Assembly (NCBI GenBank): GCA_000002445.1
Contig: CM000208.1
Location: forward strand, 928,001 to 992,000
Direction of reading: 5' to 3'
Source of the DNA: Trypanosoma brucei
Lineage: Eukaryota
DNA: 64,000 bases
Positions 11,844 through 51,686 of this stretch are shown piece after piece (position 1 is the first letter of the stretch; each line of letters opens with the position of its first letter). The notes under the pieces are model-generated. The model was not told the DNA's origin. It did no database searches and saw only the letters and a program-made list of their open reading frames with translations. The position numbers were made by a program, and so were the translations under genes.

Positions 11844-12824
11844 TCACACCGATGTGGAGAGTTCCAAATGTTTCACCCCGAGGGCGTGAATGTTGAATTC
11901 CCCACGATCGGAGAAGCGTCTTTGCACGCCCATGACACATGTGGAGTGAACCACAACCACGCAAAACATAGCCTCCACGCCACCCCCACAACTTTTAACC
12001 CTACCGGAAGGGATAACAACAAAACGGTTGGCGGGAAATGTAGTTTGCAATGCAGCCTGCAAGTAAGCCTTCTTGCTGTCTACATTTGTGTTGTTCTTCA
12101 CGCTAAACGAAAACCCAACTTTGTGGAGTTGCTGATCCGATGCCGAGGATGCGGGGAAATGTTCAATCCGAAGCTTCTCTAACCCGAGACGCATCTCGGG
12201 AAGGATGGGGCAGCATGTTAACTCGCAAGGTATCAGACGAAAACAGTGACGCAGCGCGGGGCGTTGGTTCTCCTCAACATCCTCAAAAATACGTTCAACA
12301 ACGGTACGTACCAGTGGGTTGTGCACAACTGAGTGCGCTACGAGGGCCTCAGCTCCAGAAGTAACATTGGGGCCGTCTTCGTTATGTGGCTCAATCACAA
12401 CCGGATTCGCCCTGCAATGATTATCACCGTTTCCCTCCGCCTCCGCACATGAAACAATCCCAGCCCGCTGTAGAGGAAAAGGTATGCTCACCATCAGGTG
12501 ACCTTTGCAGCACGTCTCGAGTGGGGCCAACCAGCGGCAATTTCTCTGCTCTGATTTGTTTCCTGTGAAACTTCCTGTTCGCGATCGTTTCCGAGGGGGC
12601 CGTTCCCCATCGTCGTCACTATTTCTCTCCTTATCTTCGATGGCGGGCCCTGGTATGTAAGCGGCGAGCTCCGCCGTGAGAAGACTCGAGGTGGAGGGGC
12701 TTGGTTTCTCCAAAACATTTGTTTCAGTTGTTGAACCCACTTGTTTTTTCTCACCGTTGCTACCATCATGTTCCCTTTCCAAATCCGCTATGAGTGGCTG
12801 CAAATAGAGCTGCAGTTCCCGCAA
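11844..12824 (-). CDS. Hypothetical protein, 326 aa, the terminal gene of the minus-strand transcription unit.
   Basis: A 981-nt ORF with an acidic/Ser-rich N-terminal half and no recognisable domain. A + strand ORF (11700-12182) overlaps it in antisense and is presumably spurious. Confidence 0.4.
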   Translation of the reverse strand: MRELQLYLQPLIADLEREHDGSNGEKKQVGSTTETNVLEKPSPSTSSLLTAELAAYIPGPAIEDKERNSDDDGERPPRKRSRTGSFTGNKSEQRNCRWLAPLETCCKGHLMVSIPFPLQRAGIVSCAEAEGNGDNHCRANPVVIEPHNEDGPNVTSGAEALVAHSVVHNPLVRTVVERIFEDVEENQRPALRHCFRLIPCELTCCPILPEMRLGLEKLRIEHFPASSASDQQLHKVGFSFSVKNNTNVDSKKAYLQAALQTTFPANRFVVIPSGRVKSCGGGVEAMFCVVVVHSTCVMGVQRRFSDRGEFNIHALGVKHLELSTSV

Positions 12825-23951: not shown

Positions 23952-25181
23952 CTACTTGTTACGCACGTGTCGGACAACATCGTCAATCGACTTGACCAGA
24001 AAATCCATTGTTGAGGGCGTTAACGCTGCGAGGTTGGCGCGGCCGACAGGCAGCACAAAAACGCGCTTCTCGCACAACCTTTCGCACTGAGGCCTTGAAA
24101 GTCCCATATAAGAGAACATACCCTTCTGGTTGATGATGTGCTCCCAAGTGCCGGGAGTACCGAGTTTCATCAGCCCTTCATAAACACCTTGACGCATGCT
24201 TCGGACGCGGTTCACCATCTCCTTGAGTTCCTGCTCCCATTCTGCGCGGAGTTCTTTGTCACTCATCACGAGGTGAGCGATGCGAGCGCCATGTACAGGT
24301 GGGGTTGAGTAATAGGAACGGGCGATCACCTCAAGGCGGCTCCGCACGGCCTCCTTCCTTGAAGCATCCGAAACGACAGCAGAAATCACACCAACACGTT
24401 CGGCATACAAACCCATGTTCTTGGAAAAGGACTGTGCAAGTAGCATTTCCATCCCTCTCTTTGCAAAGTGGCGGATGGCGTAGGCGTCCTCGTCGAGACT
24501 GCCGGATGCAAAACCCTGGTAGGCGGAGTCGAAGAAGGGAATCAATTTACGTTCAACAAATACATCGGCGATGGTTGCCCACTGATCTTTGCTTGGATCC
24601 ACACCAGTGGGGTTATGGGCACATGCGTGCAGCACAATAATACTCCCCTGAGGGGCCACGTTCAGATCTTCAATGAGGCCAACGAAGTCCAGCTCATGGG
24701 TGCTGGGACTGTAGTAACGGTATTCACGGATATTTTTGTGACCCACAATTCCGAATATTGATACGTGGTTTGACCATGTGGGATTTGAAACATACACGGG
24801 GGTATCTTCAGGTACCACCTGCCTGAGGAGCGTGGCTCCAAGGCTAAGCGAGCCGGTGCCGCTGAGACCCTGCGAGGCGGCGATACGCTCCAATGGCACC
24901 GTATTGCCGTAGGCGAGTTTTACAGCTTCTTCAACAAAGTTAAGAAGACCAGTCATGGGTGGGTACTCTTTATCAAGGCCCATGTCCACAATGCGCCGCT
25001 CAGCCTTCCGCACTACTTTTAATGGATACGGCAACCCGTTTTGGTCGCGGTAGGCACCAATAACGAGATCCGCCTTCGGTTCTGGGGCGGCCTTTGCAGC
25101 CCTCGCTAGACCAAAGACGGGGTCCAATGGAACGGGTGCTAAGTCCTTAAAGGGCCTGGACATTGCAGATTTCTTGAGCAC
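23952..25181 (-). CDS. ASAT: Aspartate aminotransferase (PLP-dependent class I aminotransferase), 409 aa from the first ATG.
   Basis: The PLP-binding lysine sits in the SFSKNMGLY motif. Other conserved regions include GAYRD...G.PY, NPTG and the aminotransferase class-I pyridoxal-phosphate signature. It aligns over its full length with cytosolic AspAT. The real start is probably the second Met (MSRPFKDL...). Confidence 0.93.
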   Translation of the reverse strand: MLKKSAMSRPFKDLAPVPLDPVFGLARAAKAAPEPKADLVIGAYRDQNGLPYPLKVVRKAERRIVDMGLDKEYPPMTGLLNFVEEAVKLAYGNTVPLERIAASQGLSGTGSLSLGATLLRQVVPEDTPVYVSNPTWSNHVSIFGIVGHKNIREYRYYSPSTHELDFVGLIEDLNVAPQGSIIVLHACAHNPTGVDPSKDQWATIADVFVERKLIPFFDSAYQGFASGSLDEDAYAIRHFAKRGMEMLLAQSFSKNMGLYAERVGVISAVVSDASRKEAVRSRLEVIARSYYSTPPVHGARIAHLVMSDKELRAEWEQELKEMVNRVRSMRQGVYEGLMKLGTPGTWEHIINQKGMFSYMGLSRPQCERLCEKRVFVLPVGRANLAALTPSTMDFLVKSIDDVVRHVRNK

Positions 25182-27524: not shown

Positions 27525-29603
27525 TTTTTTCTTATTATTATTATTTTTTTCTTAAAAAAAAACCCACACCTGCTCCAGCAAATGCTTGGATAGAAAATGG
27601 AGAAGGTAAAAGAAAACCAAGAAAAAAAAATAATAGTAAAATCGATGACGGCTTGTCCCTTCCGCTCGTGTTTTGCACGACCTTTTCCCTTTCTTCTTAC
27701 TTCCCTTCGCTTATCGCGCCTACAATTTCTTTTAATAAGAGAGCCTACACTTTCCCTTTCCGCTTTCGCTTCAAAGCACAGAAGATGCAAATGAGGAACA
27801 AGAAAGTTGAAGTGATGCAGAAATTTTGAATTTGTGCCTTAAAGAAGTGACACAAACAACATACATAAAGACAAAGTGAAATAGTAAACAACCCACCCAT
27901 ACAACCGACTCTACGGTAAACATGCAACAAAAAAAACAACTACAACAACAGCATCAAATAATCAAAATACCCTGAAGGTAAAGGAGCAGATGAGAAAAAA
28001 AACAATGTGGCATTGGAACAGATAGAGATAACAGTTAAATATTTTTATATATCACTCTTGCCGCACCATTTTGATATTTCTCTTTTCTCTTTTACTTCCA
28101 TCGGCACTTTCTTTTTTTTCCTCTGCTACTTTTCGTTTTCTTCATTCAAAAAAAAACACCCTTATCCATATATCTGTATATTTCTTTATATATTCGCAAC
28201 CAAATGAGTAAGTAAGTGGAGTAATGAACCAATAAATCAACTTGTTTCGTGTAACCATTTCTCTTCATTCCCGCAACGCATAAGTTTGAACTACAGGGGA
28301 GGGAAAAAGAAAATATGGATGAAGAGAAACGGCTACAAAAGAAAAATTTAAAGAAAAAAAGGACACAAAAGTGCTCAGAGAAGCGACAAGATCCAAAGAC
28401 GAAACAAGATGAACAGACTCAAAAAAAAAAAACGCAGTCAACAGAACAGCAGCCACACTTATATATGTCCCCTTCACTCATCATCTCGCCTCCCTACATT
28501 TCATTCGCTTTATCTTTCTTCTCCCTCATCGTCATCTCAGCGATTGCGCCACACGAGGTAACGCAGTAATAACAACATCAGCAATATCAGTAATATCATC
28601 AATAACAATAGTAATAATAGTAATAATGGTAATATCAATAATATTAATAATAATAATGTGTAGAGGAGCTACAAATCACTGGGACGCTGCCAGTGCAGAA
28701 TGAGAGGAGGAGAGCGGGCGCAAGACGCAAACATATATGAATAAATACACAGGTATATATATATATATGCACAAATACGTATAAGGTTATATTGATTGAG
28801 AAAAAAAACTGAAGGAAAACAACAGCGTGAGGGGCCAAAATTGGGCACATACAAGACGAGAAAAAAAAAATCCCCTTTTTGGATTCTTCAGAAAGTAAAA
28901 AGAAAAAAAAGCAAACGAACAGATTAGTCCTTTTCGCATTACTTTGACTCTCCCTTTCTCTCAGCACTCCGGGTGTGTTTCTTCGTTTTTGTTTTATATA
29001 TGGTTAGCTAAAGGGAGAGAAAAGGTTGTACAAAAAACAAAAGAGAGCAAACAACAAAAAAGAAACACATGAAGAATTCAAACTAATATGTGAATACAGA
29101 AAAAGAAAGAAGGGAGGTAATATAATTAAACAAAAAAACAAGACGGGGTAAATGGAAGCAAAAAAAAAAACACACACACACAAAACAGCAACAGCACTCG
29201 CGACAAAATGTGTTGTAAGTTCATATGGTGCCACAAAAGAGGCACACATGGGAAGGAAAAGGAAAATATGTGATAAGATGATTATGATAATTAAAAAAAG
29301 AGGGGATCAGAATTTAATAGGAAACAAAAGGGATGGAAGTAAAAATTCAGCTACATGATACGCGATTAATCCATTTTTCTAAGCGGCGCCGTATCGAACT
29401 GAGCGTTTCCGTTCCGATCCTTGTCATGTAGCTGTGGCGCACCTCGTAAGCAAGGAATATAAACAACGAACACGGCAGCAACGACGACGACAGCGACATA
29501 AACAATAATACAGCCACATAGGCATGAACACGTGAAAAAGAGTAGTAGCAAAAAAAAAAAAATGGAGCTGTAAATAGAAAACAAAGGCGTTTTAAATAGC
29601 GTT

Positions 29604-30470: not shown

Positions 30471-30730
30471 TGTGGTACCACCTTGGATCCAATAACTTTC
30501 GTCTCCGCAACTTTAAGGAAAGGCACGTGCTTTTGTCCGCTATTCCACCCAACTTGGCGCACCCAATGCCCGCTGTCTAAATGTAATGCGAGAAATAAAA
30601 ACAAGCAAGATAATACTTATGCACGTCCCCCTACTATATATGTAAATGCAAATGTATGTACCTTTTTTAGATGAGTCTCCTACGTTTATTCTCCTGTATT
30701 ATATATATAAATATATATTCTCCTATATTA

Positions 30731-30734
<4 letters not shown>

Positions 30735-30769
<35 letters not shown>
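30735..30769. repeat. (TA)n microsatellite, with a shorter TA-rich tract at 30697-30725.
   Basis: Perfect TA run. Confidence 0.95.
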
Positions 30770-31110: not shown

Positions 31111-32514
31111 TTAGGTCCCTGAGCCATGCGCTTGTTGGGAGGACGCCTCAAGAAACCGATGCCATAAGGTTGCCAACTTACACACCTCCTCCGTAGTTAA
31201 ATCAAGCACAGTCAAGGCGCCATCTGTACGCAACTCCTGCAACATATACTGGGCAACTTCAGGAGGCACGTGTTGCTGCAATGCTTTATAAACTGTCATG
31301 CCTCGCTGCCCAGGGCGCATCAACAAGTCCGTGAAGTGTATGAGTGTTGCCGCATCGAGCCCCGGTAATAATGGCACAGCACGAGGTTGAAGGGTAATTA
31401 GTGCACCAAGAACCGCAGTTTTTGGATAATACGTCATTTCTCGAAATGTCCGCAGTAGTTGTGTGTGGAAAAAGCACTGACACAATACGGAGAGGCGAGA
31501 AAAGTGAATGGAACCCGCTGGGGCGATGATACACTCCGCAACCTCCTGCTGCGTGAAAACATGTAACGGAACGCGACCGAAAACAAAAAGGTTTTGTTTA
31601 CGCGAGCAGTCGACAGCATAACGCATCAGAAGTTCAGTTATGATGTTAAAAGGGAGATTTGCTATCACTTCAAGTTTTGCATCGCCGTCTGACCACCATC
31701 TGTCGGATACCTCAAATGCAACCGACTCAGAAGAGAATGCACAACCAGAAACATCTGAACTCGGCGCCGCAGAACCGCTGTTTTGTCCACTAGCCGTGTC
31801 GTGGTTAAAAGCTGCATATTTTCCGAATCGCTTTCGAAGAATCTTCTCCCGTTGTACGTTCCGCAGTGGAGCATCCTCGCAGTAAAAATCGCCCGTGCAG
31901 CAGCCACTGTCCTTAGTACCGCTACTGCATGCTTCCCCACCATCGCTTTTATTCCCGTCGCTACTCGCACGCTCACGTGCATCTGCCGCTGGCTTCCGAC
32001 GGTGCTGCTGCGCAAATCCTGCATAAAGCGATTCCACTATTTCCAATTCATTAATACGAAGCACATCACCATTCGTCCACTGGAACTTGCCATTTGTGTA
32101 TTGCCGTATCTGCTCGAGATGACCGTTAAATCGTTCATCTTGTTCAATACCCAACACACCAACACACGGCCGAGTTAACAGGCTACGAGTCAAAGCCCCT
32201 GCACCAGGGCCCAGTTCCAGCAACAACTTGTCCGGCGTGCGTAGCGTTGTGCGACTAAGCAGCGCTGCTACCTGGTGTGTAAGCTTCAGGTTCAAAATGA
32301 AGCGCTGGCCATACTTGGCAAGGTAACCGGCGTGCGGTACTTTGAAAAGTTGTTTAAGGCCCTCCGCCTTTACGCGTGGCCCTCCGGGGCAGCGCAGCGG
32401 CGGAAGAGGTGATGCTGCGGCATCCGTACTTGGTTTACTGACGCCTCTCCTGGAGTATAATAAAGCAGCAGACGCAGAAGTCACTTGCGACCGGTTGAGG
32501 AATCGACGGGACAT
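31111..32514 (-). CDS. rRNA adenine N6,N6-dimethyltransferase of the KsgA/Dim1/TFB1M family, 467 aa, with a predicted mitochondrial presequence and a large internal insertion.
   Basis: It carries the SAM-binding motif LLELGPGAGALT and a QRFILNL block that matches the KsgA QNFL motif. The catalytic NLPFNIITE corresponds to KsgA NLPYNIST. The FSRLSV block also matches KsgA. The N-terminus is MSRRFLNRSQVTSASAALLYSRRG. An insertion of about 130 aa rich in Cys/Ser/Gly lies between the Rossmann motif II region and the NLPFN motif. Confidence 0.85.
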   Translation of the reverse strand: MSRRFLNRSQVTSASAALLYSRRGVSKPSTDAAASPLPPLRCPGGPRVKAEGLKQLFKVPHAGYLAKYGQRFILNLKLTHQVAALLSRTTLRTPDKLLLELGPGAGALTRSLLTRPCVGVLGIEQDERFNGHLEQIRQYTNGKFQWTNGDVLRINELEIVESLYAGFAQQHRRKPAADARERASSDGNKSDGGEACSSGTKDSGCCTGDFYCEDAPLRNVQREKILRKRFGKYAAFNHDTASGQNSGSAAPSSDVSGCAFSSESVAFEVSDRWWSDGDAKLEVIANLPFNIITELLMRYAVDCSRKQNLFVFGRVPLHVFTQQEVAECIIAPAGSIHFSRLSVLCQCFFHTQLLRTFREMTYYPKTAVLGALITLQPRAVPLLPGLDAATLIHFTDLLMRPGQRGMTVYKALQQHVPPEVAQYMLQELRTDGALTVLDLTTEEVCKLATLWHRFLEASSQQAHGSGT

Positions 32515-34439: not shown

Positions 34440-35948
34440 TCAGGTACCACAGCCGCACTGACTCTTACTTGGGTTGTTGGTATTTGTTGTGCCGAACACT
34501 AAGAAAAAGACCACTTCCGATATGTTCAGCTGACCGCGCAATTTTTTAGTATTAGGATCAACAAGGAACAGCTCCCTCACCCGCTGACGTACAAAGAAAA
34601 TAAATATTTCACGCAGCGTGTCATTCTCATAGAATACCCTAATCTTCTTTGGCGGTCTATCGCCAAGCGCGCCTCGTACGGTGAGTTGTGTGTTGTAAAC
34701 CCCATTATCTTCAATCCGCACAATATCACTGCGGCCAATGGCATCAACGACAACATCATTTTCTGACACCACAGCGATACAATCAATATTGTGCAGCAAT
34801 AGCAGACGTAGGGCATCCAGAAATGGAGTCTCTAATGTTACGCTAATAGGTGTCTTACGATGCTGTCCAAGTTGAGGAACAAAACGAAATGGTACGTCAG
34901 TAATCGCCTTATACGGCCCTACGCTTGCGTAGCTGCCAAAGTCAACTGGATTCTCCCGCCCCTCATTTAGTACGAGGTCGTGTAAATTACGCACATGAAG
35001 AGGAAGTGTTACACCTCCCCTCGAAAACTCGGAGTTGCTGGCGACTACACTGTCAATGAAGGGACGGTATCCGGACACGGCTTCTAACGCACTCGGCCCC
35101 CCCGTACCTTCTGCGTAATCCGACGCCTCCCGACTCGTGATGGAGGAACTCATCGCCGTGTCTGCACTGACCCCGCGAGGGCCAGATCCCTGTGACTCCA
35201 CAGAAAGAAAAAGCGCCCCCAAGTATGATAGAATTTGCTGAAGGTCGAGTAACGCCTTTACGTTAAAGTCCTCACTTTCCTTTTCTACAAGAACGACAAT
35301 ACGTTTCGCTTTATTGTTCATTATCTGAGCCAAGCATTCACTCACTGATGTCTCTGATGTACATGTAATAAGTGGCGGAACAGGGGAAAGCGAACACAAC
35401 CTATCAAATGAGTTTGCCAGTGTTTCTGCCTCAGTTGCACCTGCGTTCACAGTGCCACTGGGTTTATAGTTTCTGACCTTTTCGCGCCAATACCGAATGG
35501 TGTACTGGGGAACTCGTTCCGCCTCATCGGGATGATCGCTACAGTACAGCAATATTTCAATATAATCTGTGGAGCTCAAGACCCCACAGACGGCGCATTC
35601 CTCCCTGTCCCACAAGACGCAAGCGGCGAGCCCTCTCTCCTGCGCGGCGATAAATGCAGTCGTTAGTTCAACATCCACATCAAGTAGCACAACTTGGGTG
35701 GATGTTCCGAGAACTTCGTAGCATCTGCAGCGGGAGAGTAACTCCCTTACAGGATTCGCCAGTTGTTTACACTCATCATCAGTAGGGAAATACCCCACTT
35801 GTTGACTGGTCCTGTGACCATGCGATTCCGGTCCAAAGTTATTACTGGTGATACTGGAGGCAGCGACGGCGACACTGTTGCGGCGAGACTCAGAACTTGC
35901 AGCTATGTACGCTGCGGGGGTATCAAATAAATGGTCATACTGAGACAT
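34440..35948 (-). CDS. AMPKG: AMP-activated protein kinase gamma (SNF4-like) regulatory subunit with four CBS domains, 502 aa.
   Basis: The first CBS domain (CYEVLGTSTQVVLLDVDVELTTAFIAAQERGLAACVLWDREECAVCGVLSSTDYIEILLY) aligns closely with CBS1 of human PRKAG1. Three further CBS-like repeats follow. The position relative to FRD and ASAT fits the T. brucei AMPK gamma locus. Confidence 0.85.
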   Translation of the reverse strand: MSQYDHLFDTPAAYIAASSESRRNSVAVAASSITSNNFGPESHGHRTSQQVGYFPTDDECKQLANPVRELLSRCRCYEVLGTSTQVVLLDVDVELTTAFIAAQERGLAACVLWDREECAVCGVLSSTDYIEILLYCSDHPDEAERVPQYTIRYWREKVRNYKPSGTVNAGATEAETLANSFDRLCSLSPVPPLITCTSETSVSECLAQIMNNKAKRIVVLVEKESEDFNVKALLDLQQILSYLGALFLSVESQGSGPRGVSADTAMSSSITSREASDYAEGTGGPSALEAVSGYRPFIDSVVASNSEFSRGGVTLPLHVRNLHDLVLNEGRENPVDFGSYASVGPYKAITDVPFRFVPQLGQHRKTPISVTLETPFLDALRLLLLHNIDCIAVVSENDVVVDAIGRSDIVRIEDNGVYNTQLTVRGALGDRPPKKIRVFYENDTLREIFIFFVRQRVRELFLVDPNTKKLRGQLNISEVVFFLVFGTTNTNNPSKSQCGCGT

Positions 35949-38488: not shown

Positions 38489-40255
38489 TCACCATCTATT
38501 CCGCTTACGGGGTCGGGGGACCGTCAGTGACGATTTTCCACTAATAGCTTTCCCCTTCTTGGCACCAGCGTCCAGTTTTACAGACGACTGCACCGACCTC
38601 CTCCCTTCGCGCTGCAGCCCGTTTGATACCTTTATGGGTTCAACAAACTGCGTCCGACAAGTAAGCCCCACAGGGCTTGGACTACGCCTGGAAAAGACAT
38701 AAACGGGAAGTTGTGGGGGAAGCACAACGCATGGCTCTTCAACTTCCGTGGGGATGTTATCATTTCTATTTCCCCTCGTAATTACACGTGGTCGCACAGG
38801 TGAAATGGTATCGTCAACAATAGCGGATGCACTGTGACCAGTCATCTCGTATGGAAAGCGGCCGTCACAGTTGAACACCTTGGGTGGTGTGATGTCTTCA
38901 TCGTAGTCATGGCATACAACTACGGGAGTTTCGCGAACGTCGATACCTTTCGTGGGAGTTTTAGTATACACCTCACTGAGGTACTTCGGTTCGTCCTGCT
39001 CCAGTTTACAATCCTTCCCTTCCTCTAGCGAACTAAGTGCATTATTCGTTTTGGGTGGGGATAAACCTGATAACCCTCCATCAACGTTCTGACAAACTCC
39101 TGCCGACACCGAGTCAAGGGGTTGCGGGAGGCGACGTGGAGCAACCGACTCCCGATAGCGTGCTATTCGCTTGCCACCGACCTCAACAAATGAGGGAATA
39201 GTAGTTCCACATTCCGGAAACGAGGCTGTAGAGCAACCAGGTGAACCATTAGATCGTTGGGGAGCGGTGTGATTATAAGACAAATATTTACTTTCATCCC
39301 CGTTAGCAACATGCACACCGTAGGTCAAACCACTTTGTCCCGTAGCTCCCGAGTTCACGTTATCCTCTGGTCGAAGCGGCTGCAGTATACCACCTTCTTC
39401 ATCAAACGGGTTCTCCAGAAACGAAATGATGTCATTCTCACAGAGACAATGGCTGCGTCCTTGTGGAAGCTGTCTATCATTCACATATAGTGGGTTAGAA
39501 CCGCTGTTAAGCAAGCAGAAGTAGGGCCCCTCGAACTTCGTTGTCCCATTATCGCCGCACTTATATCCTGTTGTACTGCGACCACTGTTTGTTCCTGAGG
39601 GAACGCCCCACGTCATGGGTGGAAACTTGGAAAGCACTTTCCTGTGGAACACAGTATTTTCGACATGAACAACACGGCATTGAAGCCGACTGATGGACCC
39701 GTGTTTTAGTCGGTAGTCAGATGGCAAGAGCGTATGACGACCCAATACCACATGCGGTATTGTTTTCATCCATTCGTCCGTCTGAACACCAGCTAGTCCA
39801 CTACTCGCCTTGGTGTTGCATACACTTCCCCTCCCAACACGCCGCGGAATGCGATTTTTCTTTACTCTGGCAGAACCGCTATCTTCACTCCAGCTGTTGT
39901 AGAAATGCTCCAGCAGCAGTGGCTGTGGGGATGTGGGAAGAATGAGATCATTGTTACAGATGCACCCGTTGATAACTTTTAGTTGCCATACCGGCAATGG
40001 CACATCCCCTCGCATCAGTCCGTAGTAGGTTGCGTTGACCAACAGCAGCAACGGATGTATATGTCCTTTTATCTCCAGTTCGTGCGTTCCTCCTCTTCCT
40101 CTTTGCCGGTCCAACCCTGCGGAAGATAGACCTAACAAACACACCGCAGGGAAGAGAGACAATATGGGGTTAAAAAGTACAGTTAATTTCTTCAAAATAA
40201 CGAATATCAGTGAACACGGGTGCGTGAGACAAGAAAAGGAAATACAATAACGCAC
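38489..40255 (-). CDS. Hypothetical protein with an FHA-like domain (588 aa ORF; the real start is probably an internal Met near 40015, giving about 509 aa).
   Basis: The candidate FHA segment is VVLGRHTLLPSDYRLKHGSISRLQCRVVH...NPLYVNDRQLPQGRSHCLCENDIISF, which has GR...S..H and N..Y/NG..L-like spacing. The first 80 residues are a hydrophobic, Leu-rich stretch with no upstream polypyrimidine tract. A minus-strand polyY tract at about 40110-40140 precedes the Met of MRGDVPLPV. Confidence 0.55.
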   Translation of the reverse strand: MRYCISFSCLTHPCSLIFVILKKLTVLFNPILSLFPAVCLLGLSSAGLDRQRGRGGTHELEIKGHIHPLLLLVNATYYGLMRGDVPLPVWQLKVINGCICNNDLILPTSPQPLLLEHFYNSWSEDSGSARVKKNRIPRRVGRGSVCNTKASSGLAGVQTDEWMKTIPHVVLGRHTLLPSDYRLKHGSISRLQCRVVHVENTVFHRKVLSKFPPMTWGVPSGTNSGRSTTGYKCGDNGTTKFEGPYFCLLNSGSNPLYVNDRQLPQGRSHCLCENDIISFLENPFDEEGGILQPLRPEDNVNSGATGQSGLTYGVHVANGDESKYLSYNHTAPQRSNGSPGCSTASFPECGTTIPSFVEVGGKRIARYRESVAPRRLPQPLDSVSAGVCQNVDGGLSGLSPPKTNNALSSLEEGKDCKLEQDEPKYLSEVYTKTPTKGIDVRETPVVVCHDYDEDITPPKVFNCDGRFPYEMTGHSASAIVDDTISPVRPRVITRGNRNDNIPTEVEEPCVVLPPQLPVYVFSRRSPSPVGLTCRTQFVEPIKVSNGLQREGRRSVQSSVKLDAGAKKGKAISGKSSLTVPRPRKRNRW

Positions 40256-40517: not shown

Positions 40518-42545
40518 TCACCGTGCTGGTCGCGCCCACGGGTCCTGGGCTACTCGTTCCGGTATGGGCCCCCTATCCGGCGTGTACATTTCCTCCTGTC
40601 GACTCTCCTCCAGAAGCTCAAAAAGCCCACGAGCCCTCCTCTTCAGTTTCTCTCTCCCCGACTCCCCGTGCCGCATTTCTTCTTCCTCACCCGTTTCCCG
40701 CTCCCGCATTGTTGCGTGCTCCATATCTCTCTGGCGCATCACAAGGAGTTGTAGGAAAATGCTGAAAATCAGCATAGCAACGAGCAACCTGGGCGTGCGC
40801 GCGTACTTGGAGTCCAATGTGGGAGCGCATTTTGGGCACTTGCACCAAAAGCGGTACCGGTCATGAAGCACATACTGACGGTTGTCAAACGACCACTCAG
40901 GTGGTACATAGCTAATGAGGATTTCGGAGCCCGCAGGAATGTCAGCGGTAGCACGACAGCAGAACAGATATTCCACAGTCCCACTAGGAATTATTTGGTT
41001 ACCATCAGCATTGTGCACATCCTCCATGCACTCATCCTCACTAGCATCCCTATCGCTTTTCGTGTCACTCGTGGTGTTACGCCCACTCGTGGCATCAACT
41101 ATGTCATTGTTGCTGCTTTTCGTGTACTCACCGTAGTTGGTAGCACAGAACGCGGCATTGGCCGAGTCCCCCAACTCGTCAACGTAGTAATCTGTCTCAC
41201 AGAAAGTGTGCGCCGGAATTACATCGTACGTTGCATTAGGAGAACAACTGTGGTTAAAAAAACCTGCTTCTGGAAAGTATGCCATACCCTTACGCACGGC
41301 GTACGAAGACTCCACGAGAAAGCTGTTCATATCCATAATGGCTGCTAATCGCGCAATGTGGATCTCGTGCAACTCAAGAGCACGCAACACCTCCGCGCCG
41401 CCAATACACTCCAAAACCTGTTTGGTTGCGCTGCGCGGCCAATGCAACAACAAGGATGATGGCTGACCTGTTAAAACCCAGTCGTGTAGGAAGTCCAACT
41501 TTTGCGGGTTTCCATTGCAGAAGTTATTGTACGTGTCCGACAAAACGTCCGTGCACATCTCCACTAGACGCTCGATCTCACTTTTCACGCCAAGATTCCT
41601 CGCAGTGTTGCGGACGATCATAATGGTTTCACCAGCCGACACATCCCGAGTTGTAAAAACACCACGACCTGTCAGTGCAAAGCTATTCTTGATGACTGTC
41701 TCCTGTAGCACCTTGCCATTGCAAGACGGTAGACTTTGGTGCAACGTAGAGCGATGCTGAAGGCCGCGAAAATCACGAGGGAGAGGTAACATTACCTCCC
41801 CCATCGTTGCTGCAGCCACCTCCGTGGTATTATCAGAAGTAAACGCGTCCTCAAAGCCCACCTCACCCGTTCCCACCACTCCCAGCTGACCATCTCCATG
41901 TACAATAAACGGACCAGTCGGTGTCTTCTTTACCCAGGGGTGCGATTGTGCAGGTGGGAGCTCCGGGACGTTGTCACGCCGGTCGTATACCGGGTAATCT
42001 GGGTCAAGTGCTACCACAAGCATTTGTTGATGTCGCTTAATCCGACGGAACTGAGGAACAACGTCATCTGGATGGGGAGGGTACGGAATGGTGGAGTTGC
42101 GTTGTTGGTGGTGGTGCGCGATTTCACGCTCCTTTCTAAACAAAAATGCACGCACCTCATTTTCCGAGAGGTCCCCCACCCGATTTCCGCCAAAGACAGT
42201 TTCTGCTTTATCATTGATACCGTTGACGCCTTCTCCGCCTCCACACCGGCTTAGTTCATCTGCTTCCTCCGATTTAGACTTCTGCGGGTCGTGCAGAGTT
42301 ACGTGCACACGCGGGTACGCAGCAGATGTTTGCATCATCCGCGCATTCACTGCCTCAGTGCGGGGGACAGATGCGGAGCCGCAATAGTTCTCACCGGTAT
42401 GGCAATAAGGCGGTGTTTGCTTTCCTTCATCGGCACTTGTCCCATTCTTCTTGGCACTCTGCTGGCGACGGGAAACGAAGCAGCTGATGCAGTGCGACCT
42501 CAAGACGCCATTGGCACCTGGGAAATACGGACGCATCAAAAGCAC
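40518..42545 (-). CDS. SET-domain protein, a putative protein-lysine methyltransferase, 675 aa.
   Basis: The SET-N region reads GRGVFTTRDVSAGETIMI. The core signature is GFFNHSCSPNATYD. An acidic insertion of about 90 aa follows, then ELISYVPPEW and a post-SET Cys cluster (CKCPKC). The C-terminus is a coiled-coil/EE-rich tail. Confidence 0.8.
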   Translation of the reverse strand: MLLMRPYFPGANGVLRSHCISCFVSRRQQSAKKNGTSADEGKQTPPYCHTGENYCGSASVPRTEAVNARMMQTSAAYPRVHVTLHDPQKSKSEEADELSRCGGGEGVNGINDKAETVFGGNRVGDLSENEVRAFLFRKEREIAHHHQQRNSTIPYPPHPDDVVPQFRRIKRHQQMLVVALDPDYPVYDRRDNVPELPPAQSHPWVKKTPTGPFIVHGDGQLGVVGTGEVGFEDAFTSDNTTEVAAATMGEVMLPLPRDFRGLQHRSTLHQSLPSCNGKVLQETVIKNSFALTGRGVFTTRDVSAGETIMIVRNTARNLGVKSEIERLVEMCTDVLSDTYNNFCNGNPQKLDFLHDWVLTGQPSSLLLHWPRSATKQVLECIGGAEVLRALELHEIHIARLAAIMDMNSFLVESSYAVRKGMAYFPEAGFFNHSCSPNATYDVIPAHTFCETDYYVDELGDSANAAFCATNYGEYTKSSNNDIVDATSGRNTTSDTKSDRDASEDECMEDVHNADGNQIIPSGTVEYLFCCRATADIPAGSEILISYVPPEWSFDNRQYVLHDRYRFWCKCPKCAPTLDSKYARTPRLLVAMLIFSIFLQLLVMRQRDMEHATMRERETGEEEEMRHGESGREKLKRRARGLFELLEESRQEEMYTPDRGPIPERVAQDPWARPAR

Positions 42546-45992: not shown

Positions 45993-47642
45993 TTAAAGAT
46001 TTCTGTTGATGATGGACCGCGCAAATACTGCAACAACCAGCCACAAAGTGATCCACAAGAATGAGAGAAACATCACATTAGAAACTGGCGTTATACGAAA
46101 GGTAGTGTCTCCAGGATACGTTTCGGTTGATTTTCCAGGATTTTGCATCAAATGTATCAATAGGCCCTTATGATCTGAAGCACTGAAGTCCTCATTAAAC
46201 AGAACATATCCATCGGGTACGGGTTGCCCGCTTCGAAGAGATTCCGCGGATGACGAGGTGATACTTCCACTTTCCTGAAGACGGTGAACAATATCTTCTG
46301 GGAGCTCCGGCGGCAGCACCCGAACATTGCTGAGCAATGTCCAGTCTAATTTCCCTTTCACGAAACCGTAAAAATCAGGGTTATCCAAGGTGACGGAGCG
46401 CACCTTATCACTTGGATCGTAGAAGCAGAGGCTCTTATTGTCCATCGCCTCCAGTTCCTCGGGGGAAAAACCATACAGAAGTCGGTACATGGTATCGCTG
46501 TTAATGACACGATTATATAACCTCCGTAAGGTAGAAACAATATTGGATAGCTGTGAAGCGGGTTCGGCGCTATCAACCCACTGCATACCCCGCGAAAGTA
46601 TTTTCCGCTGCAACCAACATGATTCCTTCTCGCCGATGCTGAGAAACCGCATTCGATCGTTCGCAACAGTTTTAGACAACCGCACAACGCCGTAAACGAC
46701 AGTGTTGAGATCGCCACCAAGAACGAACGCGGGTTGTTGATCCATTCCTTCGCTCTCCTTTAGCAAAGCGTTAGCATCACGCAACACGTCCACTAACTGC
46801 CGCGCTCGCCCAAGCACCCCACAAAAAATTTCAAAATGGCAGGAGTACAAGTATAAGTCTGGCATAGAGACGTTCTCGCGCTCACAACTTTTGATACAGC
46901 ACCGCATAAAATAACGAAATCCGCAGCGTGGCTCCCGCAACTTAACACCATGCTTCTCCCAGTCCAGCCCAACATAATGCGGAATAGCGGTAACATTACT
47001 TAGAGTGGCGACAGAGGAAAGTATAGCATTCCCATGAAAATGGCGTTGACCCCTTCGCTGCCCCGAAATCCCACCGGCACCAGAATTCCCGCTTCTGCTA
47101 TCCAAATGCAATGTCGGTTGGGAAAGCGGTCCAACAGCGTTTTTCGGGGAGCGAAGTGTCGAGTCCAACTCCTCAAACTCGCAGAGAAAATAAACCTCCA
47201 TTTCTAGGGCCTTTGCCAGTTCTTTGGCCACATTGCGATAACCGGACCGTCGGCAGTTGATATCCAGTTCCTGCAGGATAAGTATATCTGCTTTCAGGGC
47301 ACGGAATGTGTCCTTAACACGATCCCATTGAATGCCTCGCTCGATATTCCACTGGACAACGTGAAACTGATCGGGAAGACGTTTTTCCTTCGCCATCGGC
47401 GTCCTGTAGTCGTAGTGCAGAAATCCTCCTGGAGTCAGTTTTTCCAACTGTTCCTCGGCGCTTTCGTTAAATGTAGCATCGTGCAGACATTCCCTATCGA
47501 TGCGCATCGACGCATGGTTGGCATCCACAAACTTACCGGTACTGGACATGATGCTTATGGGGGTTTCCAAGGATGCAGGAGCAAAAGGAGAGAAGTGACC
47601 ATGTTTTACATAGGGGAAAATACAACACAGAAAGTACAACAA
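45993..47642 (-). CDS. Endonuclease/exonuclease/phosphatase (EEP) fold protein with a C-terminal transmembrane anchor, 549 aa.
   Basis: EEP motifs are present: FHVVQWNIERG (the N-terminal Asn/Glu metal site), ILILQELD, a late GGDLNTV and a terminal SDH. The C-terminus is a hydrophobic helix (VMFLSFLWITLWLVVAVFA). Sphingomyelinase-like and inositol- or nucleic-acid-phosphatase-like activities cannot be told apart by eye. Confidence 0.7.
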   Translation of the reverse strand: MLYFLCCIFPYVKHGHFSPFAPASLETPISIMSSTGKFVDANHASMRIDRECLHDATFNESAEEQLEKLTPGGFLHYDYRTPMAKEKRLPDQFHVVQWNIERGIQWDRVKDTFRALKADILILQELDINCRRSGYRNVAKELAKALEMEVYFLCEFEELDSTLRSPKNAVGPLSQPTLHLDSRSGNSGAGGISGQRRGQRHFHGNAILSSVATLSNVTAIPHYVGLDWEKHGVKLREPRCGFRYFMRCCIKSCERENVSMPDLYLYSCHFEIFCGVLGRARQLVDVLRDANALLKESEGMDQQPAFVLGGDLNTVVYGVVRLSKTVANDRMRFLSIGEKESCWLQRKILSRGMQWVDSAEPASQLSNIVSTLRRLYNRVINSDTMYRLLYGFSPEELEAMDNKSLCFYDPSDKVRSVTLDNPDFYGFVKGKLDWTLLSNVRVLPPELPEDIVHRLQESGSITSSSAESLRSGQPVPDGYVLFNEDFSASDHKGLLIHLMQNPGKSTETYPGDTTFRITPVSNVMFLSFLWITLWLVVAVFARSIINRNL

Positions 47643-49526: not shown

Positions 49527-51686
49527 TCACCTTCCATCGCCTTTATTATCACCAACCTCTATCACCAGGCCAGAGGTGCTAATAGCCTCAGTGTTTGAAA
49601 ATGTGCCTTCTTCTGCGTTCCAACTTTCCATCGGCGGTATCTGCTGCTCCGTCTTGGCAACCTCTTGGCGGAGATACTGCGTTAAATCTGCATCGTATTT
49701 GAAGGCGATTTTCTTTGCCTCGGCAACGTGCCGTGTTGCTGCCGCGTACTTTTTCAAGGAGACGTACACTCGAGCTATGTGGTTGAGAGATTCAGCTGTC
49801 GCCATCTCACTACTTTCCCCTCGTGTACGCCGCACGTTCAATGCTTTTTCATGCCAAGTTAGCGCATCTGCATATCGCTTCTGTAGGTGGCAGCAATGGC
49901 CATACGTCGTATACACATCCGCTTGGGCAAGCACGTTAGATCTAGCGGTTTTGGCGTACATGTCGAGTGCACACTTGCACATCTTCTCACAATTCTCCGT
50001 GTCCTCGCGGTGTAGGTAGAGAAGTGCAAAATTACTGTAAGAATACGCGACGGTTGCATGAGTTTCACCGAGCATTTCAATACGGATATCAAGGGCCTCC
50101 TTTAGGCACGCCTCAGCCTTCTCGTAATGATGAAAATCAAGGTAGAGGAGCCCAAGATCATCCAGCACGTCAGTTAAAAAGGTCCGCTGCAGCGGCTCCA
50201 CCTTCGCATTTTCACGAAACTGCTCAATGGAAAGAAGGAAGTACGCCTCGGCATGCGACTCCCGCCGCATGGCGTACACATCACCAATTTTCTGGTATAA
50301 ATACGCTAACTGCGGATCTTTGCCGTTGCTGCTAAGACCACTAGGACTTTTGTTAGCTTTGCGCAACTCCACTGCATTCCGGAAGAGGTCAATAGCACGG
50401 TCCAAATCGCGTCGCTTTACAAGAAGTGAACCAAGGAATGTATACGCTTCCGCCAGCTGCAAGGCACTTGGTCCCAGGGCCTTTTTAATTATGTCAATGC
50501 CTTTTTCGTATGCTTTCTGAGAAGTAGAGTAATCATCGCACAGCTCTTCAATGCGACCAAGTTTCACGAGCTCCTGCCCGTACAGAGCAGAGTCTTCTCC
50601 CAGTGATGCGGCATACGCTCGGCAACTTTCCTCGTAAAATCTCTTCGCTTCACGGAACTGCCGGCGCGCGGCCAGCAGTGATGCTTTACTGCTAGTGGCT
50701 TGAGCCGTTGCGGGTGAGTCACGGCCCAATGAAGCGATACAGATGTCAAGGCACTCCGTGATGCACATTTCTGCCCCGGTAGAATCGTTAATAGTTTTTT
50801 TGAGTTCACACAACTTATTCAACGTTTGTGCGATGATTGGCCTAAACTTGTTGTGGCGCGTGTAAAGGAAGCGACGAATCTCGAGCGCTTCTTCAAGAAA
50901 TACGATAGCGCGATGTTCCTGATTTTGTAGAAGAAACAGCTGTGCACAGTCTGCTAATGCGTGTGCTGCAGAGGCTAGCGGGTGGTTCTGTGGTTCTGTC
51001 AATGCAGCGGCTTCAGCTTCAGCATTATCAGGTAGCCATGAACCCGCCGCGTGGTTGTAACAAACGTCACGAAAGATTTTTATACTCTCGCGAAAGGCCT
51101 TTTCCGCCTCAGGAATGAAATTTAGATGCGTGTATGCCAGCGCAAGAAGAGAAAGACTTTCTGCGTATTTGAGCGACTTGGCTCCTTCAACTTCCTCATA
51201 GATGGCTGCCGCTTCTGTGAGCGCATTTTCCGCCGCGGCCGGCTCGCGCATATCCAGGAAGACGCGACCAATGTTATGTAACGTGGCCGCGCATTTGCTG
51301 TGAATGGGTCCGTACTTCTCTCGTCGCATCGTGAGCGCGCGATCGTAAAGGGAAATCGCATCGCCATAGTTTTTTGTCTGGTGTGCGACTTTAGCAAGGC
51401 CGTTACACTCCTCCCCAAATTCAAATGTCATAGGAGCTCGTCCTGCTGCCTCACGGAAGCCTTTTGGCGCGTACTGCCGGGGCCCAATGAAGCGCTGCTG
51501 AAAGAAAAGTGCGTTCAAACGAATATTGGTAGGCAGCGGAGTGCGACTCCTCAAAAGAAAAATGCCACTGTTTCTTGCTACAGCTGAGTGCTGGCTTCCA
51601 AAGCGAGAAAAAGTGGCGGTGTTCATCATTTTGGCAAACGTTTTGATCACCTTGCGTCCTCCTTTCCCCTCTTGTGTTAGTGTCAA
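49527..51686 (-). CDS. Tetratricopeptide-repeat (TPR) protein, kinesin-light-chain-like, 719 aa.
   Basis: There are about 12 consecutive 34-residue TPR units of the W-LG-Y-A-F-A-P type (for example AHQTKNYGDAISLYDRALTMRREKYGPIHSKCAATLHNIGRVF). The N-terminus has a mitochondrial-presequence-like segment. Confidence 0.75.
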   Translation of the reverse strand: MTLTQEGKGGRKVIKTFAKMMNTATFSRFGSQHSAVARNSGIFLLRSRTPLPTNIRLNALFFQQRFIGPRQYAPKGFREAAGRAPMTFEFGEECNGLAKVAHQTKNYGDAISLYDRALTMRREKYGPIHSKCAATLHNIGRVFLDMREPAAAENALTEAAAIYEEVEGAKSLKYAESLSLLALAYTHLNFIPEAEKAFRESIKIFRDVCYNHAAGSWLPDNAEAEAAALTEPQNHPLASAAHALADCAQLFLLQNQEHRAIVFLEEALEIRRFLYTRHNKFRPIIAQTLNKLCELKKTINDSTGAEMCITECLDICIASLGRDSPATAQATSSKASLLAARRQFREAKRFYEESCRAYAASLGEDSALYGQELVKLGRIEELCDDYSTSQKAYEKGIDIIKKALGPSALQLAEAYTFLGSLLVKRRDLDRAIDLFRNAVELRKANKSPSGLSSNGKDPQLAYLYQKIGDVYAMRRESHAEAYFLLSIEQFRENAKVEPLQRTFLTDVLDDLGLLYLDFHHYEKAEACLKEALDIRIEMLGETHATVAYSYSNFALLYLHREDTENCEKMCKCALDMYAKTARSNVLAQADVYTTYGHCCHLQKRYADALTWHEKALNVRRTRGESSEMATAESLNHIARVYVSLKKYAAATRHVAEAKKIAFKYDADLTQYLRQEVAKTEQQIPPMESWNAEEGTFSNTEAISTSGLVIEVGDNKGDGR

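What the first reader, a model, noticed from the sequence alone, without database searches (positions are those of the whole stretch)
31111..32514. Mitochondrial KsgA/TFB1M-type rRNA dimethyltransferase with a ~130-aa Cys/Ser-rich insertion
All the core KsgA motifs are present (QRFIL, LELGPGAGALT, NLPFNIITE, FSRLSV), so the enzyme is probably active. It also carries a mitochondrial presequence, and a long insertion (approximately ...ESLYAGFAQQHRRKPAADARERASSDGNKSDGGEACSSGTKDSGCCTGDFYCEDAPLRN...) sits between the SAM-binding half and the catalytic loop. Kinetoplastid mitoribosomes have extremely reduced 9S/12S rRNAs. Whether the helix-45 substrate adenines of this methyltransferase exist there is an open and interesting question. 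The insertion could adapt the enzyme to a protein-rich small subunit or to a transcription-factor-B-like role.
Basis: partly seen in the sequence, partly recalled or inferred. Interest (0 to 1): 0.55.

Follow-up and report, generated by a model that had tools for sequence, protein, structure and literature searches.

The report
Trypanosome mitochondrial TFB1M rRNA methyltransferase gene
This is the already annotated Trypanosoma brucei gene Tb927.10.3690, the mitochondrial TFB1M/KsgA-type rRNA dimethyltransferase that helps build the small mitoribosomal subunit; its only unusual feature is a mostly disordered loop of about 106 residues that contains one conserved arginine-rich helix.

Summary
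The ORF at 31111..32514 (-) is real. It is identical to T. brucei TREU927 XP_822618.1/Q38BN0, which is Tb927.10.3690, 'rRNA dimethyltransferase, putative'. Sequence and predicted fold both place it closest to mammalian TFB1M, ahead of KsgA, TFB2M and Dim1. The SAM-binding and catalytic motifs are conserved across about 45 kinetoplastid orthologues. Three changes affect the target-adenine and RNA-contact residues: QNF became QRF, the RRK patch is reduced to one Arg, and the human R183 equivalent is Cys in the T. brucei group only.

The insertion lies between motif III and motif IV, at the known mtTFB 'insert 1' site. It is about 106 aa longer than in human TFB1M, not about 130. It is predicted disordered and varies in length between species. 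The Cys-richness is confined to T. brucei. Its one conserved element is an Arg-rich helix, APLRxxxRExxLRxR, with net charge about +6.

Published data already place the protein in mitochondria. An August 2026 preprint names it the T. brucei TFB1M homologue and shows that it co-purifies with small-subunit precursors. A 2023 paper reports that helix 45 is preserved in the 9S rRNA. Methylation of 9S and the role of the insertion remain untested. The gene is already known, and interest is low to moderate.

The parts
31111..32514 (-). Complete CDS (467 aa plus TAA stop) of Tb927.10.3690, the T. brucei TFB1M/KsgA-type rRNA adenine dimethyltransferase
   Evidence: ORF. Exact identity to XP_822618.1/Q38BN0. 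Pfam RrnaAD E=6.8e-25. The gene ID follows from the product name, the chromosome-10-sized contig and gene-order counting.
32407..32514 (-). N-terminal presequence (about residues 1-36). The first 30 residues carry 6 K+R and no D/E and are rich in S/T/A/L. This region is not conserved in sequence between species.
   Evidence: Composition. The N-termini diverge in the alignment. TargetP and MitoFates are positive for Tb927.10.3690 in Peikert 2017 Suppl. Data 2a.
32326..32406 (-). N-terminal element conserved in kinetoplastids, LPPLRCPGGPRVKAEGLKQLFKVPHAG (residues 37-63). It partly aligns with human TFB1M RLPPLPTIREIIKLL.
   Evidence: Alignment.
32299..32307 (-). Motif X, Q70-R71-F72. Human TFB1M has Q35-N36-F37. 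The Asn is replaced by Arg in all 22 kinetoplastid orthologues aligned for the residue map.
   Evidence: Residue map. Human DIMT1 has GQHIL at this position, so the Asn is not required for activity in this family.
32188..32217 (-). Motif I, the SAM-binding loop ELGPGAGALT (residues 100-109). E100, G102, G104 and G106 are invariant.
32137..32145 (-). Motif II, E124-Q-D126. E124 corresponds to human E85, which binds the SAM ribose hydroxyls.
   Evidence: Role of the residue from Liu et al. 2019.
32059..32067 (-). Motif III, D150-V151-L152. D150 corresponds to human D111, which binds N6 of the SAM adenine.
31711..32001 (-). Lineage-specific insertion (residues 172-268, 97 aa) at the mtTFB 'insert 1' site between motif III and motif IV. 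It is predicted disordered apart from one helix, and its length varies between orthologues.
   Evidence: Split TFB1M matches. Alignment. Motif III to IV distances. AF2 pLDDT below 50 for 192-218 and 234-262. Insert 1 is defined in Park et al. 2008.
31816..31872 (-). Conserved arginine-rich helix inside the insertion, APLRNVQREKILRKRFGKY (residues 215-233, net charge +6). Consensus APLRSxQRExxLRxR.
   Evidence: Per-position conservation of 70-90%. AF2 predicts a helix at 220-233 with pLDDT about 71. Median net charge is +6 over 44 orthologues.
31648..31701 (-). RWWSDG element (human RPWEDD), strand beta4 and motif IV N286-L287-P288-F289, the catalytic target-adenine loop. NLPF is invariant.
31567..31605 (-). 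mtTFB 'insert 2' (residues 304-316, SRKQNLFVFGRVP; human CRDGPFVYGRTQ). It is shared with TFB1M and absent from bacterial KsgA.
   Evidence: Alignment. The distance from motif IV to the QxE motif is 36 aa in TFB1M-type proteins and 28 in KsgA-type proteins.
31531..31533 (-). Codon TGT for C328. The position corresponds to human R183, which contacts the h45 backbone. It is Arg in 21 of the 22 kinetoplastid orthologues aligned for the residue map and Cys only in the T. brucei group.
   Evidence: P0001 (T. equiperdum) also has Cys. Role of R183.
31114..31362 (-). C-terminal helical domain (about residues 385-467). Only R404 (human R256) of the RRK RNA-binding patch is kept; human R257 and K258 correspond to G405 and M406.

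Best explanation
The gene encodes the single mitochondrial TFB1M orthologue of T. brucei (Tb927.10.3690).

Shown here or in print:
- The protein has an N-terminal presequence and is found in mitochondria.
- It has the two-domain KsgA/TFB1M fold.
- It associates physically with precursors of the small mitoribosomal subunit.

Inferred:
- As in human mitochondria and bacteria, it binds the 3' minor domain of the 9S rRNA early in assembly.
- It holds helix 45 away from helix 44.
- It uses SAM to dimethylate the two adjacent loop adenines of h45, then leaves so that the decoding centre can close.

The extra 106 residues or so expand the mtTFB 'insert 1' loop. In docked and solved KsgA/TFB1M-subunit complexes this loop lies on the face away from the rRNA. 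Most of the expansion is a disordered, fast-evolving, low-complexity linker. Its conserved core is a short arginine-rich helix. I infer that this helix is a docking element for a kinetoplastid-specific partner on the very protein-rich pre-subunit. The partner would be either an acidic assembly factor, such as the p32-like protein that co-purifies with TFB1M, or a stretch of 9S rRNA. Such a contact could also compensate for the weakened RRK/R183 RNA-binding patch.
For: Identity: an exact match to XP_822618.1/Q38BN0 on a 4.05-Mb contig. The product name and gene ID come from Peikert 2017. Gene-order counting supports the ID: a TPR protein lies 8 genes away, as expected for Tb927.10.3770.

Family:
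- Pfam RrnaAD gives E=6.8e-25.
- PDB sequence matches rank TFB1M (5.6e-24) above Rickettsia KsgA (3.2e-14), TFB2M (3.2e-7) and DIMT1 (0.0035).
- The AF2 model has pLDDT 82 with the core above 90. Its best Foldseek hits are TFB1M chains 4gc5, 8csp_5, 7pnt_c and 6aax, with target-normalised TM-score 0.84-0.88.
- TFB1M-type insert 2 is present.

Active site: E124, D150, V151, N286-L-P-F289, Q322 and E324 match the human SAM-pocket and adenine-pocket residues. They are invariant or nearly invariant in kinetoplastids. Short-loop Euglenozoa-like relatives show decay at these positions, for example SSLPF, NVPF and NISF. Published diplonemid homologues also lack most catalytic residues.

Location and partners: the protein is marked as detected in the mitochondrial proteome and is positive in TargetP and MitoFates. 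An mt-SAF16 pull-down recovered Tb927.10.3690. A TFB1M:V5 pull-down recovered a large subset of assemblosome components plus the p32-like protein Tb927.7.3470.

Substrate: h45 is reported to be well preserved in the Trypanosoma 9S rRNA.

Insertion:
- It is present in all kinetoplastid orthologues, with motif III to IV distances of 67-169 aa against 21-39 in bacteria and 30 in human.
- It is predicted disordered apart from helix 220-233.
- The helix is 70-90% conserved and has a median net charge of +6.
- Insert 1 faces away from the 30S subunit in the docking model of Park 2008.
Against: - No experiment shows m6,2A in 9S rRNA or methyltransferase activity of this protein.
- I could not obtain the 9S sequence, so I did not confirm the two loop adenines myself.
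- Motif X carries Arg instead of the Asn that contacts the target adenine in human TFB1M.
- Of the three Arg residues whose joint mutation abolishes h45 binding in human TFB1M, T. brucei keeps only one.
- The protein is absent from the solved assemblosome structures and from the 2008 mitoribosome purification list. Its exact binding site is therefore unknown.
- The docking role of the Arg-rich helix rests on conservation and charge alone. The tools gave no model coordinates or complex prediction.
Confidence: 0.7

Rival explanations
1. Assembly factor only. The protein still binds and remodels h45 and h44 during small-subunit assembly but no longer methylates. This is what has been proposed for diplonemid TFB1M and shown for catalytically dead human MRM2.
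For: N36 is replaced by R71 in motif X. The R257/K258 equivalents are lost. R183 is replaced by C328 in T. brucei. Precedents in the sister group and in humans are described in Valach 2023. The NCBIfam ksgA equivalog score of 100.8 is below its cut-off of 171.
Against: All SAM-contacting residues and the NLPF loop are invariant or nearly so across orthologues from trypanosomatids to the most divergent kinetoplastid-like sequences. Relatives thought to be inactive have lost them. An active family member, human DIMT1, has His at the N36 position, so Asn is not obligatory.
Confidence: 0.2
2. Transcription-factor-B-like role. The enlarged insert 1 turns the protein into a partner of the kinetoplast mitochondrial RNA polymerase, as TFB2M and yeast Mtf1 are for their polymerases.
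For: Insert 1 is longer in TFB2M and fungal mtTFB than in TFB1M, and it was proposed to form part of a transcription-related surface. To my knowledge no initiation factor is known for the trypanosome mitochondrial polymerase.
Against: The protein matches TFB1M much better than TFB2M in sequence (5.6e-24 against 3.2e-7) and in fold (target-normalised TM-score 0.84-0.88 against 0.62-0.73). It has no counterpart of insert 3, which binds the polymerase in yeast. Its methyltransferase residues are intact, unlike those of Mtf1. The text I read on the TFB1M:V5 pull-down reports pre-subunit components and contains no occurrence of 'RNA polymerase'.
Confidence: 0.05
3. The insertion has no function. 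It is a neutral low-complexity expansion in a tolerant surface loop, of the kind common in trypanosomatid proteins.
For: Its length ranges from about 40 to about 140 extra residues, and the flanks are not conserved. The Cys content is restricted to one lineage. AF2 predicts disorder. Unrelated TFB1M-like proteins elsewhere have independently expanded the same loop to 61-85 aa without a shared motif.
Against: The APLRxxxRExxLRxR core is 70-90% conserved and keeps a net charge of about +6 across the orthologues. The orthologues with the shortest insertions, such as P0034, keep little besides this core.
Confidence: 0.25

Closest known systems
Mammalian TFB1M (mitochondrial dimethyladenosine transferase 1; PDB 4GC5, 6AAX, 8CSP, 7PNT)
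   Same: It is the best match in sequence and in fold. The two proteins share the two-domain architecture, the SAM pocket (E85/D111/N141 in human against E124/D150/N286 here), the NLPF loop, mtTFB insert 2 and the PW-type element before beta4. Both are mitochondrial and both associate with small-subunit precursors alongside NOA1, METTL17 and RBFA homologues.
   Different: Insert 1 is about 106 residues longer and carries an Arg-rich helix. Motif X is QRF instead of QNF. The RRK patch is reduced to one Arg, and R183 is Cys in T. brucei. There is an added RCPGGPR element near the N-terminus. Methylation has not been demonstrated.
Bacterial KsgA/RsmA (E. coli 1QYR, 7O5H)
   Same: Same fold and catalytic motifs. 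The presumed substrate is the same: the tandem adenines of the h45 loop.
   Different: KsgA lacks mtTFB inserts 1 and 2. The score against the NCBIfam ksgA equivalog model is below its cut-off (100.8 against 171). Motif III to IV spans 22 aa in KsgA and 136 aa here.
TFB2M / yeast Mtf1 (mitochondrial transcription initiation factors)
   Same: Same superfamily. They also have a lengthened insert 1.
   Different: The match is much weaker. There is no insert 3. The catalytic residues are retained here but degraded in Mtf1. There is no evidence for contact with an RNA polymerase.
Diplonemid TFB1M homologues (Valach et al. 2023)
   Same: They come from the sister lineage and also co-purify with early small-subunit precursors. 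The Arg in motif X is shared by the euglenozoan-like relatives found here.
   Different: The diplonemid proteins are reported to have lost most catalytic residues, and their h45 is vestigial. The short-loop relatives found here lack the large insertion.
Cytosolic Dim1/DIMT1
   Same: Same enzyme family and same chemistry, acting on 18S rRNA.
   Different: The sequence match is only marginal (E=0.0035 to 0.29). This protein lacks the Dim1 C-terminal insert and has a mitochondrial presequence.

Membership tests
KsgA/Dim1/TFB rRNA adenine dimethylase superfamily (Pfam PF00398) | Profile match above the curated threshold | tested here: met
   88.1 bits against a cut-off of 24, E=6.8e-25.
KsgA/Dim1/TFB rRNA adenine dimethylase superfamily (Pfam PF00398) | Rossmann-type N-terminal domain plus helical C-terminal domain | tested here: met
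   The AF2 core has pLDDT above 90. Foldseek target-normalised TM-score is 0.84-0.88 to TFB1M and 0.79-0.87 to KsgA chains.
KsgA/Dim1/TFB rRNA adenine dimethylase superfamily (Pfam PF00398) | SAM-binding motifs I (GxGxG), II (acidic) and III (Asp), and motif IV N-L-P-Y/F | tested here: met
   E100/G102/G104/G106, E124, D150 and N286-L-P-F289 are invariant or nearly invariant.
KsgA/Dim1/TFB rRNA adenine dimethylase superfamily (Pfam PF00398) | Motif X Q-N-F and the basic RRK patch of the C-terminal domain | tested here: not met
   The protein has QRF and R-G-M. In T. brucei the R183 equivalent is Cys. DIMT1 has QHI at motif X, so the Asn is not universal in the family.
Bacterial RsmA/KsgA equivalog (NCBIfam TIGR00755) | Score above the equivalog cut-off | tested here: not met
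   100.8 bits against a cut-off of 171. This is expected for a divergent eukaryotic homologue.
TFB1M-type mitochondrial dimethylase | mtTFB inserts 1 and 2 present, and insert 3 absent | tested here: met
   Insert 2 aligns with human CRDGPFVYGRTQ. The distance from motif IV to QxE is 36 aa, as in TFB1M. Insert 1 is present and enlarged. There is no extra segment at the insert 3 position (definitions).
TFB1M-type mitochondrial dimethylase | Mitochondrial localisation | tested here: met
   From the literature, not my own experiment. The protein is marked as detected in the mitochondrial proteome and as positive in TargetP and MitoFates. It was pulled down from mitochondrial lysate. The N-terminal composition fits a presequence.
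TFB1M-type mitochondrial dimethylase | Association with small mitoribosomal subunit precursors | tested here: met
   From the literature only: reciprocal IP-MS in bioRxiv 10.64898/2026.08.02.742330.
TFB1M-type mitochondrial dimethylase | N6,N6-dimethylation of the two adjacent adenines in the h45 loop of the mitochondrial SSU rRNA | not testable with these tools
   I found no report of m6,2A in 9S rRNA. h45 is said to be preserved in Trypanosoma. I could not retrieve the 9S sequence.
TFB2M/Mtf1 transcription initiation factors | Insert 3 and binding to the mitochondrial RNA polymerase | tested here: not met
   No insert 3 appears in the alignment. The TFB2M sequence match is weak (E=3.2e-7, N-terminal stretch only). 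Polymerase binding was not testable here.
Cytosolic Dim1/DIMT1 | Close sequence match to Dim1 and the Dim1 C-terminal insert | tested here: not met
   E=0.0035 to human DIMT1 and 0.29 to yeast Dim1.

The most novel reading that the evidence does not exclude
The conserved arginine-rich helix in the enlarged insert 1 is a kinetoplastid-specific docking module. It would tether TFB1M to an acidic p32-family trimer (Tb927.7.3470, which co-purifies with TFB1M) or to a 9S rRNA segment. Methylation of h45 would thereby be coupled to a lineage-specific checkpoint of small-subunit assembly. This contact would also compensate for the eroded RRK/R183 RNA-binding patch.
Probability: 0.2. Interest if true: 0.45.

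Novelty: already known. Interest (0 to 1): 0.25.

Why it matters
The trypanosome mitoribosome is the extreme case of a protein-rich ribosome with minimal rRNA, and it is essential in the parasite. A conserved h45 dimethylase would show that this ancient assembly checkpoint has survived there. That would help order the earliest steps of small-subunit assembly, which are still not seen in structures. The gene's identity and its link to assembly are already published. What this analysis adds is modest:
- a residue-level map suggesting that catalysis is retained while the canonical RNA-binding patch is weakened;
- the identification of one conserved Arg-rich helix as the only constrained part of the insertion, which gives a precise target for mutagenesis.

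Tried and rejected
- 9S rRNA sequence. I wanted to check the h45 loop adenines directly, but no tool route reached a maxicircle. The DNA collections are phage, plasmid, E. coli, prokaryotic or metagenomic. The window holds no match to any Rfam family at gathering score. The 1985 rRNA papers are not held.
- Valach 2023 supplement. The TFB1M alignment figure is not held as text.
- Text searches. Searches for 'rRNA dimethyltransferase' with T. brucei or Tb927.10 found nothing. The gene ID came from a supplementary table instead.
- Metal binding. A conserved metal-binding or redox role for the cysteines in the insertion is rejected. There are 5 Cys in T. brucei and 0-2 in the other orthologues, with no conserved positions.
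- Dim1. A cytosolic Dim1 identity is rejected on E-values, on the mtTFB inserts and on localisation.
- TFB2M-like role. This is considered unlikely.
- Position of the helix. I could not test where the insertion helix sits relative to the core, because model coordinates are not exposed.
- T. brucei Dim1 paralogue. I ran no further search on it. Its existence would not bear on a mitochondrial role.
- No tRNA genes were found in the window.
Full report
**Observation.** The window carries an ATG-initiated ORF of 467 codons at 31111..32514 on the minus strand. It lies in a long run of minus-strand ORFs. Upstream there is a polypyrimidine tract followed by an AG at 32579-32580, as expected for a trypanosome polycistronic unit. 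The family assignment is not a chance match. Pfam RrnaAD gives E=6.8e-25. Mouse and human TFB1M chains are the best solved relatives at E=5.6e-24 and 2.6e-22. Each TFB1M match is split in two, query 48/55-154 and 262/272-381, around a block that has no counterpart.

**Identity.** The protein is identical over its full length to T. brucei brucei TREU927 XP_822618.1 / UniProt Q38BN0, 'rRNA dimethyltransferase, putative'. That record sits on a 4.05-Mb contig, the size of chromosome 10. The same product name belongs to Tb927.10.3690 (old name Tb10.70.3680) in Peikert et al. 2017. Gene order agrees: a 719-aa TPR protein lies eight ORFs further along the strand, where Tb927.10.3770, 'predicted TPR repeat protein', is expected.

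**Which branch of the family.** Sequence matches rank as follows:
- TFB1M, E about 1e-24
- Rickettsia KsgA, 3e-14
- TFB2M, 3e-7, N-terminal stretch only
- human DIMT1, 0.0035
- yeast Dim1, 0.29

An AlphaFold2 model built on 53 sequences has mean pLDDT 82, with the core above 90. Its top Foldseek hits in the PDB are TFB1M chains, with target-normalised TM-score 0.84-0.88 and rmsd 2.3-2.5 A for the complexed forms. KsgA and Dim1 chains follow, and all listed TFB2M chains score lower on target-normalised TM-score. The protein shares the TFB1M-type 'insert 2' (SRKQNLFVFGRVP against human CRDGPFVYGRTQ) and the PW-type element before beta4. It shows no extra segment where TFB2M and Mtf1 carry the polymerase-binding insert 3.

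I also searched 1.84 billion representative proteins. 21 have E<=1e-30 and, as far as inspected, carry the x-R-F form of motif X; they are presumably euglenozoan orthologues (the library gives no taxonomy). After a sharp drop in score, the next proteins carry QNF, mostly RRK-type basic patches, and the TFB1M spacing of 36 aa between motif IV and QxE. The protein is therefore the TFB1M-type mitochondrial dimethylase, not Dim1, a bacterial-type KsgA or a TFB2M.

**Active site.** I mapped the residues that Liu et al. 2019 define in human TFB1M onto the alignment.
- The SAM pocket is intact: E85 matches E124, D111 matches D150, V112 matches V151, N141/L142 match N286/L287, and V146 matches I291.
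- Most of the target-adenine pocket is intact: Q35 matches Q70 and F144 matches F289. Q177 and E179 match Q322 and E324.
- These positions are invariant or nearly so in the kinetoplastid orthologues.
- Three things differ. N36 is Arg (R71) in every kinetoplastid, although human DIMT1 has His there, so Asn is not obligatory. The RRK patch keeps only R404. R183 is Cys in the T. brucei group only, through a TGT codon at 31531-31533.

In human TFB1M the triple mutant R183E/R256E/R257E abolishes h45 binding. The canonical RNA-contact patch is therefore weakened here, while the catalytic pocket looks functional.

**The insertion.** Motif III to motif IV spans 136 aa here. It spans 30 aa in human TFB1M, 22 in E. 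coli KsgA, 21-39 in the bacterial hits and 67-169 in the kinetoplastid orthologues. The extra material is therefore about 106 aa, not about 130.

It sits at the site that Shutt & Gray and Park et al. call mtTFB insert 1. In their docking model this site lies on the face away from the small subunit, and it is longer in TFB2M and Mtf1 than in TFB1M.

AlphaFold predicts disorder, with pLDDT below 50 for 192-218 and 234-262. The exception is a helix at 220-233 with pLDDT about 71. The flanks are low-complexity and not conserved. The five cysteines are peculiar to T. brucei, against 0-2 elsewhere.

The helix corresponds to the only conserved element, APLRSxQRExxLRxR, which shows 70-90% identity at its key positions. 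Its median net charge is +6 over 44 orthologues, and it is only weakly amphipathic. Orthologues with the shortest insertions keep little else.

Short-loop relatives in the same high-scoring group lack the insertion and show decay of catalytic motifs. This fits the published description of diplonemid TFB1M. Unrelated TFB1M-like proteins have independently expanded the same loop to 61-85 aa without a shared motif, so the loop tolerates insertions.

**What is already known.**
- T. brucei and L. major mtTFB sequences were included in the 2008 family alignment, which followed Shutt & Gray 2006.
- Tb927.10.3690 is in the mitochondrial reference set of Peikert 2017. It is marked for the mitochondrial proteome (Panigrahi 2009 / Mach 2013), TargetP and MitoFates, but not for the 2008 mitoribosome purification.
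- Valach et al. 2023 state that h18, h44 and h45 are the well-preserved helices of the Trypanosoma 9S rRNA. They also note that TFB1M had not been analysed in kinetoplastids, and that diplonemid TFB1M has lost its catalytic residues.
- The solved assemblosome contains Mettl17 (mt-SAF1), Mettl15 (mt-SAF14) and RbfA (mt-SAF18) but no TFB1M.
- A preprint of August 2026 (doi 10.64898/2026.08.02.742330) reports that mt-SAF16 pull-downs contain 'previously unidentified homologs' of NOA1 (Tb927.6.2290) and TFB1M (Tb927.10.3690). It also reports that TFB1M:V5 pulls down a large subset of assemblosome components plus the p32-like protein Tb927.7.3470.
- I found no report of m6,2A in 9S rRNA and no knock-down of this gene.

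**Mechanism.** By homology with human and bacterial systems, the most likely course is as follows. The imported protein binds the 3' minor domain of nascent 9S rRNA next to NOA1 and Mettl17. It sequesters h45 and dimethylates the two loop adenines with SAM. It then leaves before or around the assemblosome stage, which already holds RbfA.
- Shown: fold, motifs, localisation and association with the pre-subunit.
- Inferred: catalysis, timing and the role of the insertion.

For the insertion I favour a disordered tether that carries an Arg-rich docking helix. The partner could be an acidic factor. p32-family trimers have strongly negative surfaces, and one of them co-purifies with TFB1M. From my own knowledge, p32 proteins bind basic peptides. 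Alternatively the partner could be a stretch of rRNA, which would compensate for the weakened RRK/R183 patch. This part is a hypothesis with no structural test behind it.

**Rivals.** An assembly-only pseudoenzyme is possible, but the strict conservation of the SAM pocket argues against it. A transcription-factor role lacks any supporting feature. A purely neutral insertion fits the flanks but not the conserved helix.

**Verdict.** However, the gene is annotated, has been recognised in the literature as the trypanosome mtTFB/TFB1M homologue, and was recently tied experimentally to small-subunit biogenesis. The remaining open points are whether 9S is actually dimethylated and what the Arg-rich helix binds. 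These are worthwhile but incremental.

Noticed in passing
window 31531..31533 (-): In the T. brucei group (T. b. brucei and T. equiperdum, whose sequences I read; T. b. gambiense is in the same 90% cluster), Cys replaces an otherwise near-universal Arg. The position corresponds to human TFB1M R183 and E. coli KsgA R147, which contact the h45 backbone. T. congolense, T. vivax, T. cruzi and Leishmania keep Arg. One short-loop relative (P0068) also has Cys.
   Followed up: partly
window about 9221..11844: ORFs of at least 200 aa are on the + strand up to about 9.2 kb and almost all on the - strand from about 11.8 kb to the end. The sign of the GC skew changes at about 10 kb. The two blocks point towards each other, so this looks like a convergent strand-switch region between polycistronic units. 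No tRNA gene and no Rfam family match was found in the whole window.
   Followed up: partly
window 30700..30767: A (TA)n microsatellite of about 34 copies lies in the intergenic region about 350 bp downstream of the TFB1M stop codon. A/T-rich AAT-type repeats lie at 28564..28657.
   Followed up: no
window 49527..51686 (-), 45993..47642 (-), 40518..42545 (-), 38489..40255 (-), 34440..35948 (-), 23952..25181 (-): Neighbouring ORFs carry these Pfam domains, in the order listed: TPR repeats (fits Tb927.10.3770), a weak endonuclease/exonuclease/phosphatase domain, SET, a weak FHA domain, CBS, and class I/II aminotransferase. Nothing suggests a functional link to the methyltransferase, as expected for trypanosome polycistrons.
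   Followed up: partly
proteins P0068, P0070, P0072, P0074 (from the representative search): These relatives share the Arg in motif X but have a short motif III-IV loop (34-37 aa). P0068, P0070 and P0072 have degraded catalytic motifs (SSLPF, NVPF, NISF); P0074 keeps NLPF. They may be the diplonemid-type inactive TFB1M. If so, the N-to-R change would predate the large insertion. Their taxonomy is unknown.
   Followed up: partly
window 32326..32406 (-): A conserved kinetoplastid N-terminal element, LPPLRCPGGPRVKAEGLKQLFKVPHAG, lies just after the variable presequence. The RCPGGPR part has no counterpart in human TFB1M. N-terminal regions are reported to be functionally important in this enzyme family (title of PMC11789486, seen).
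   Followed up: no
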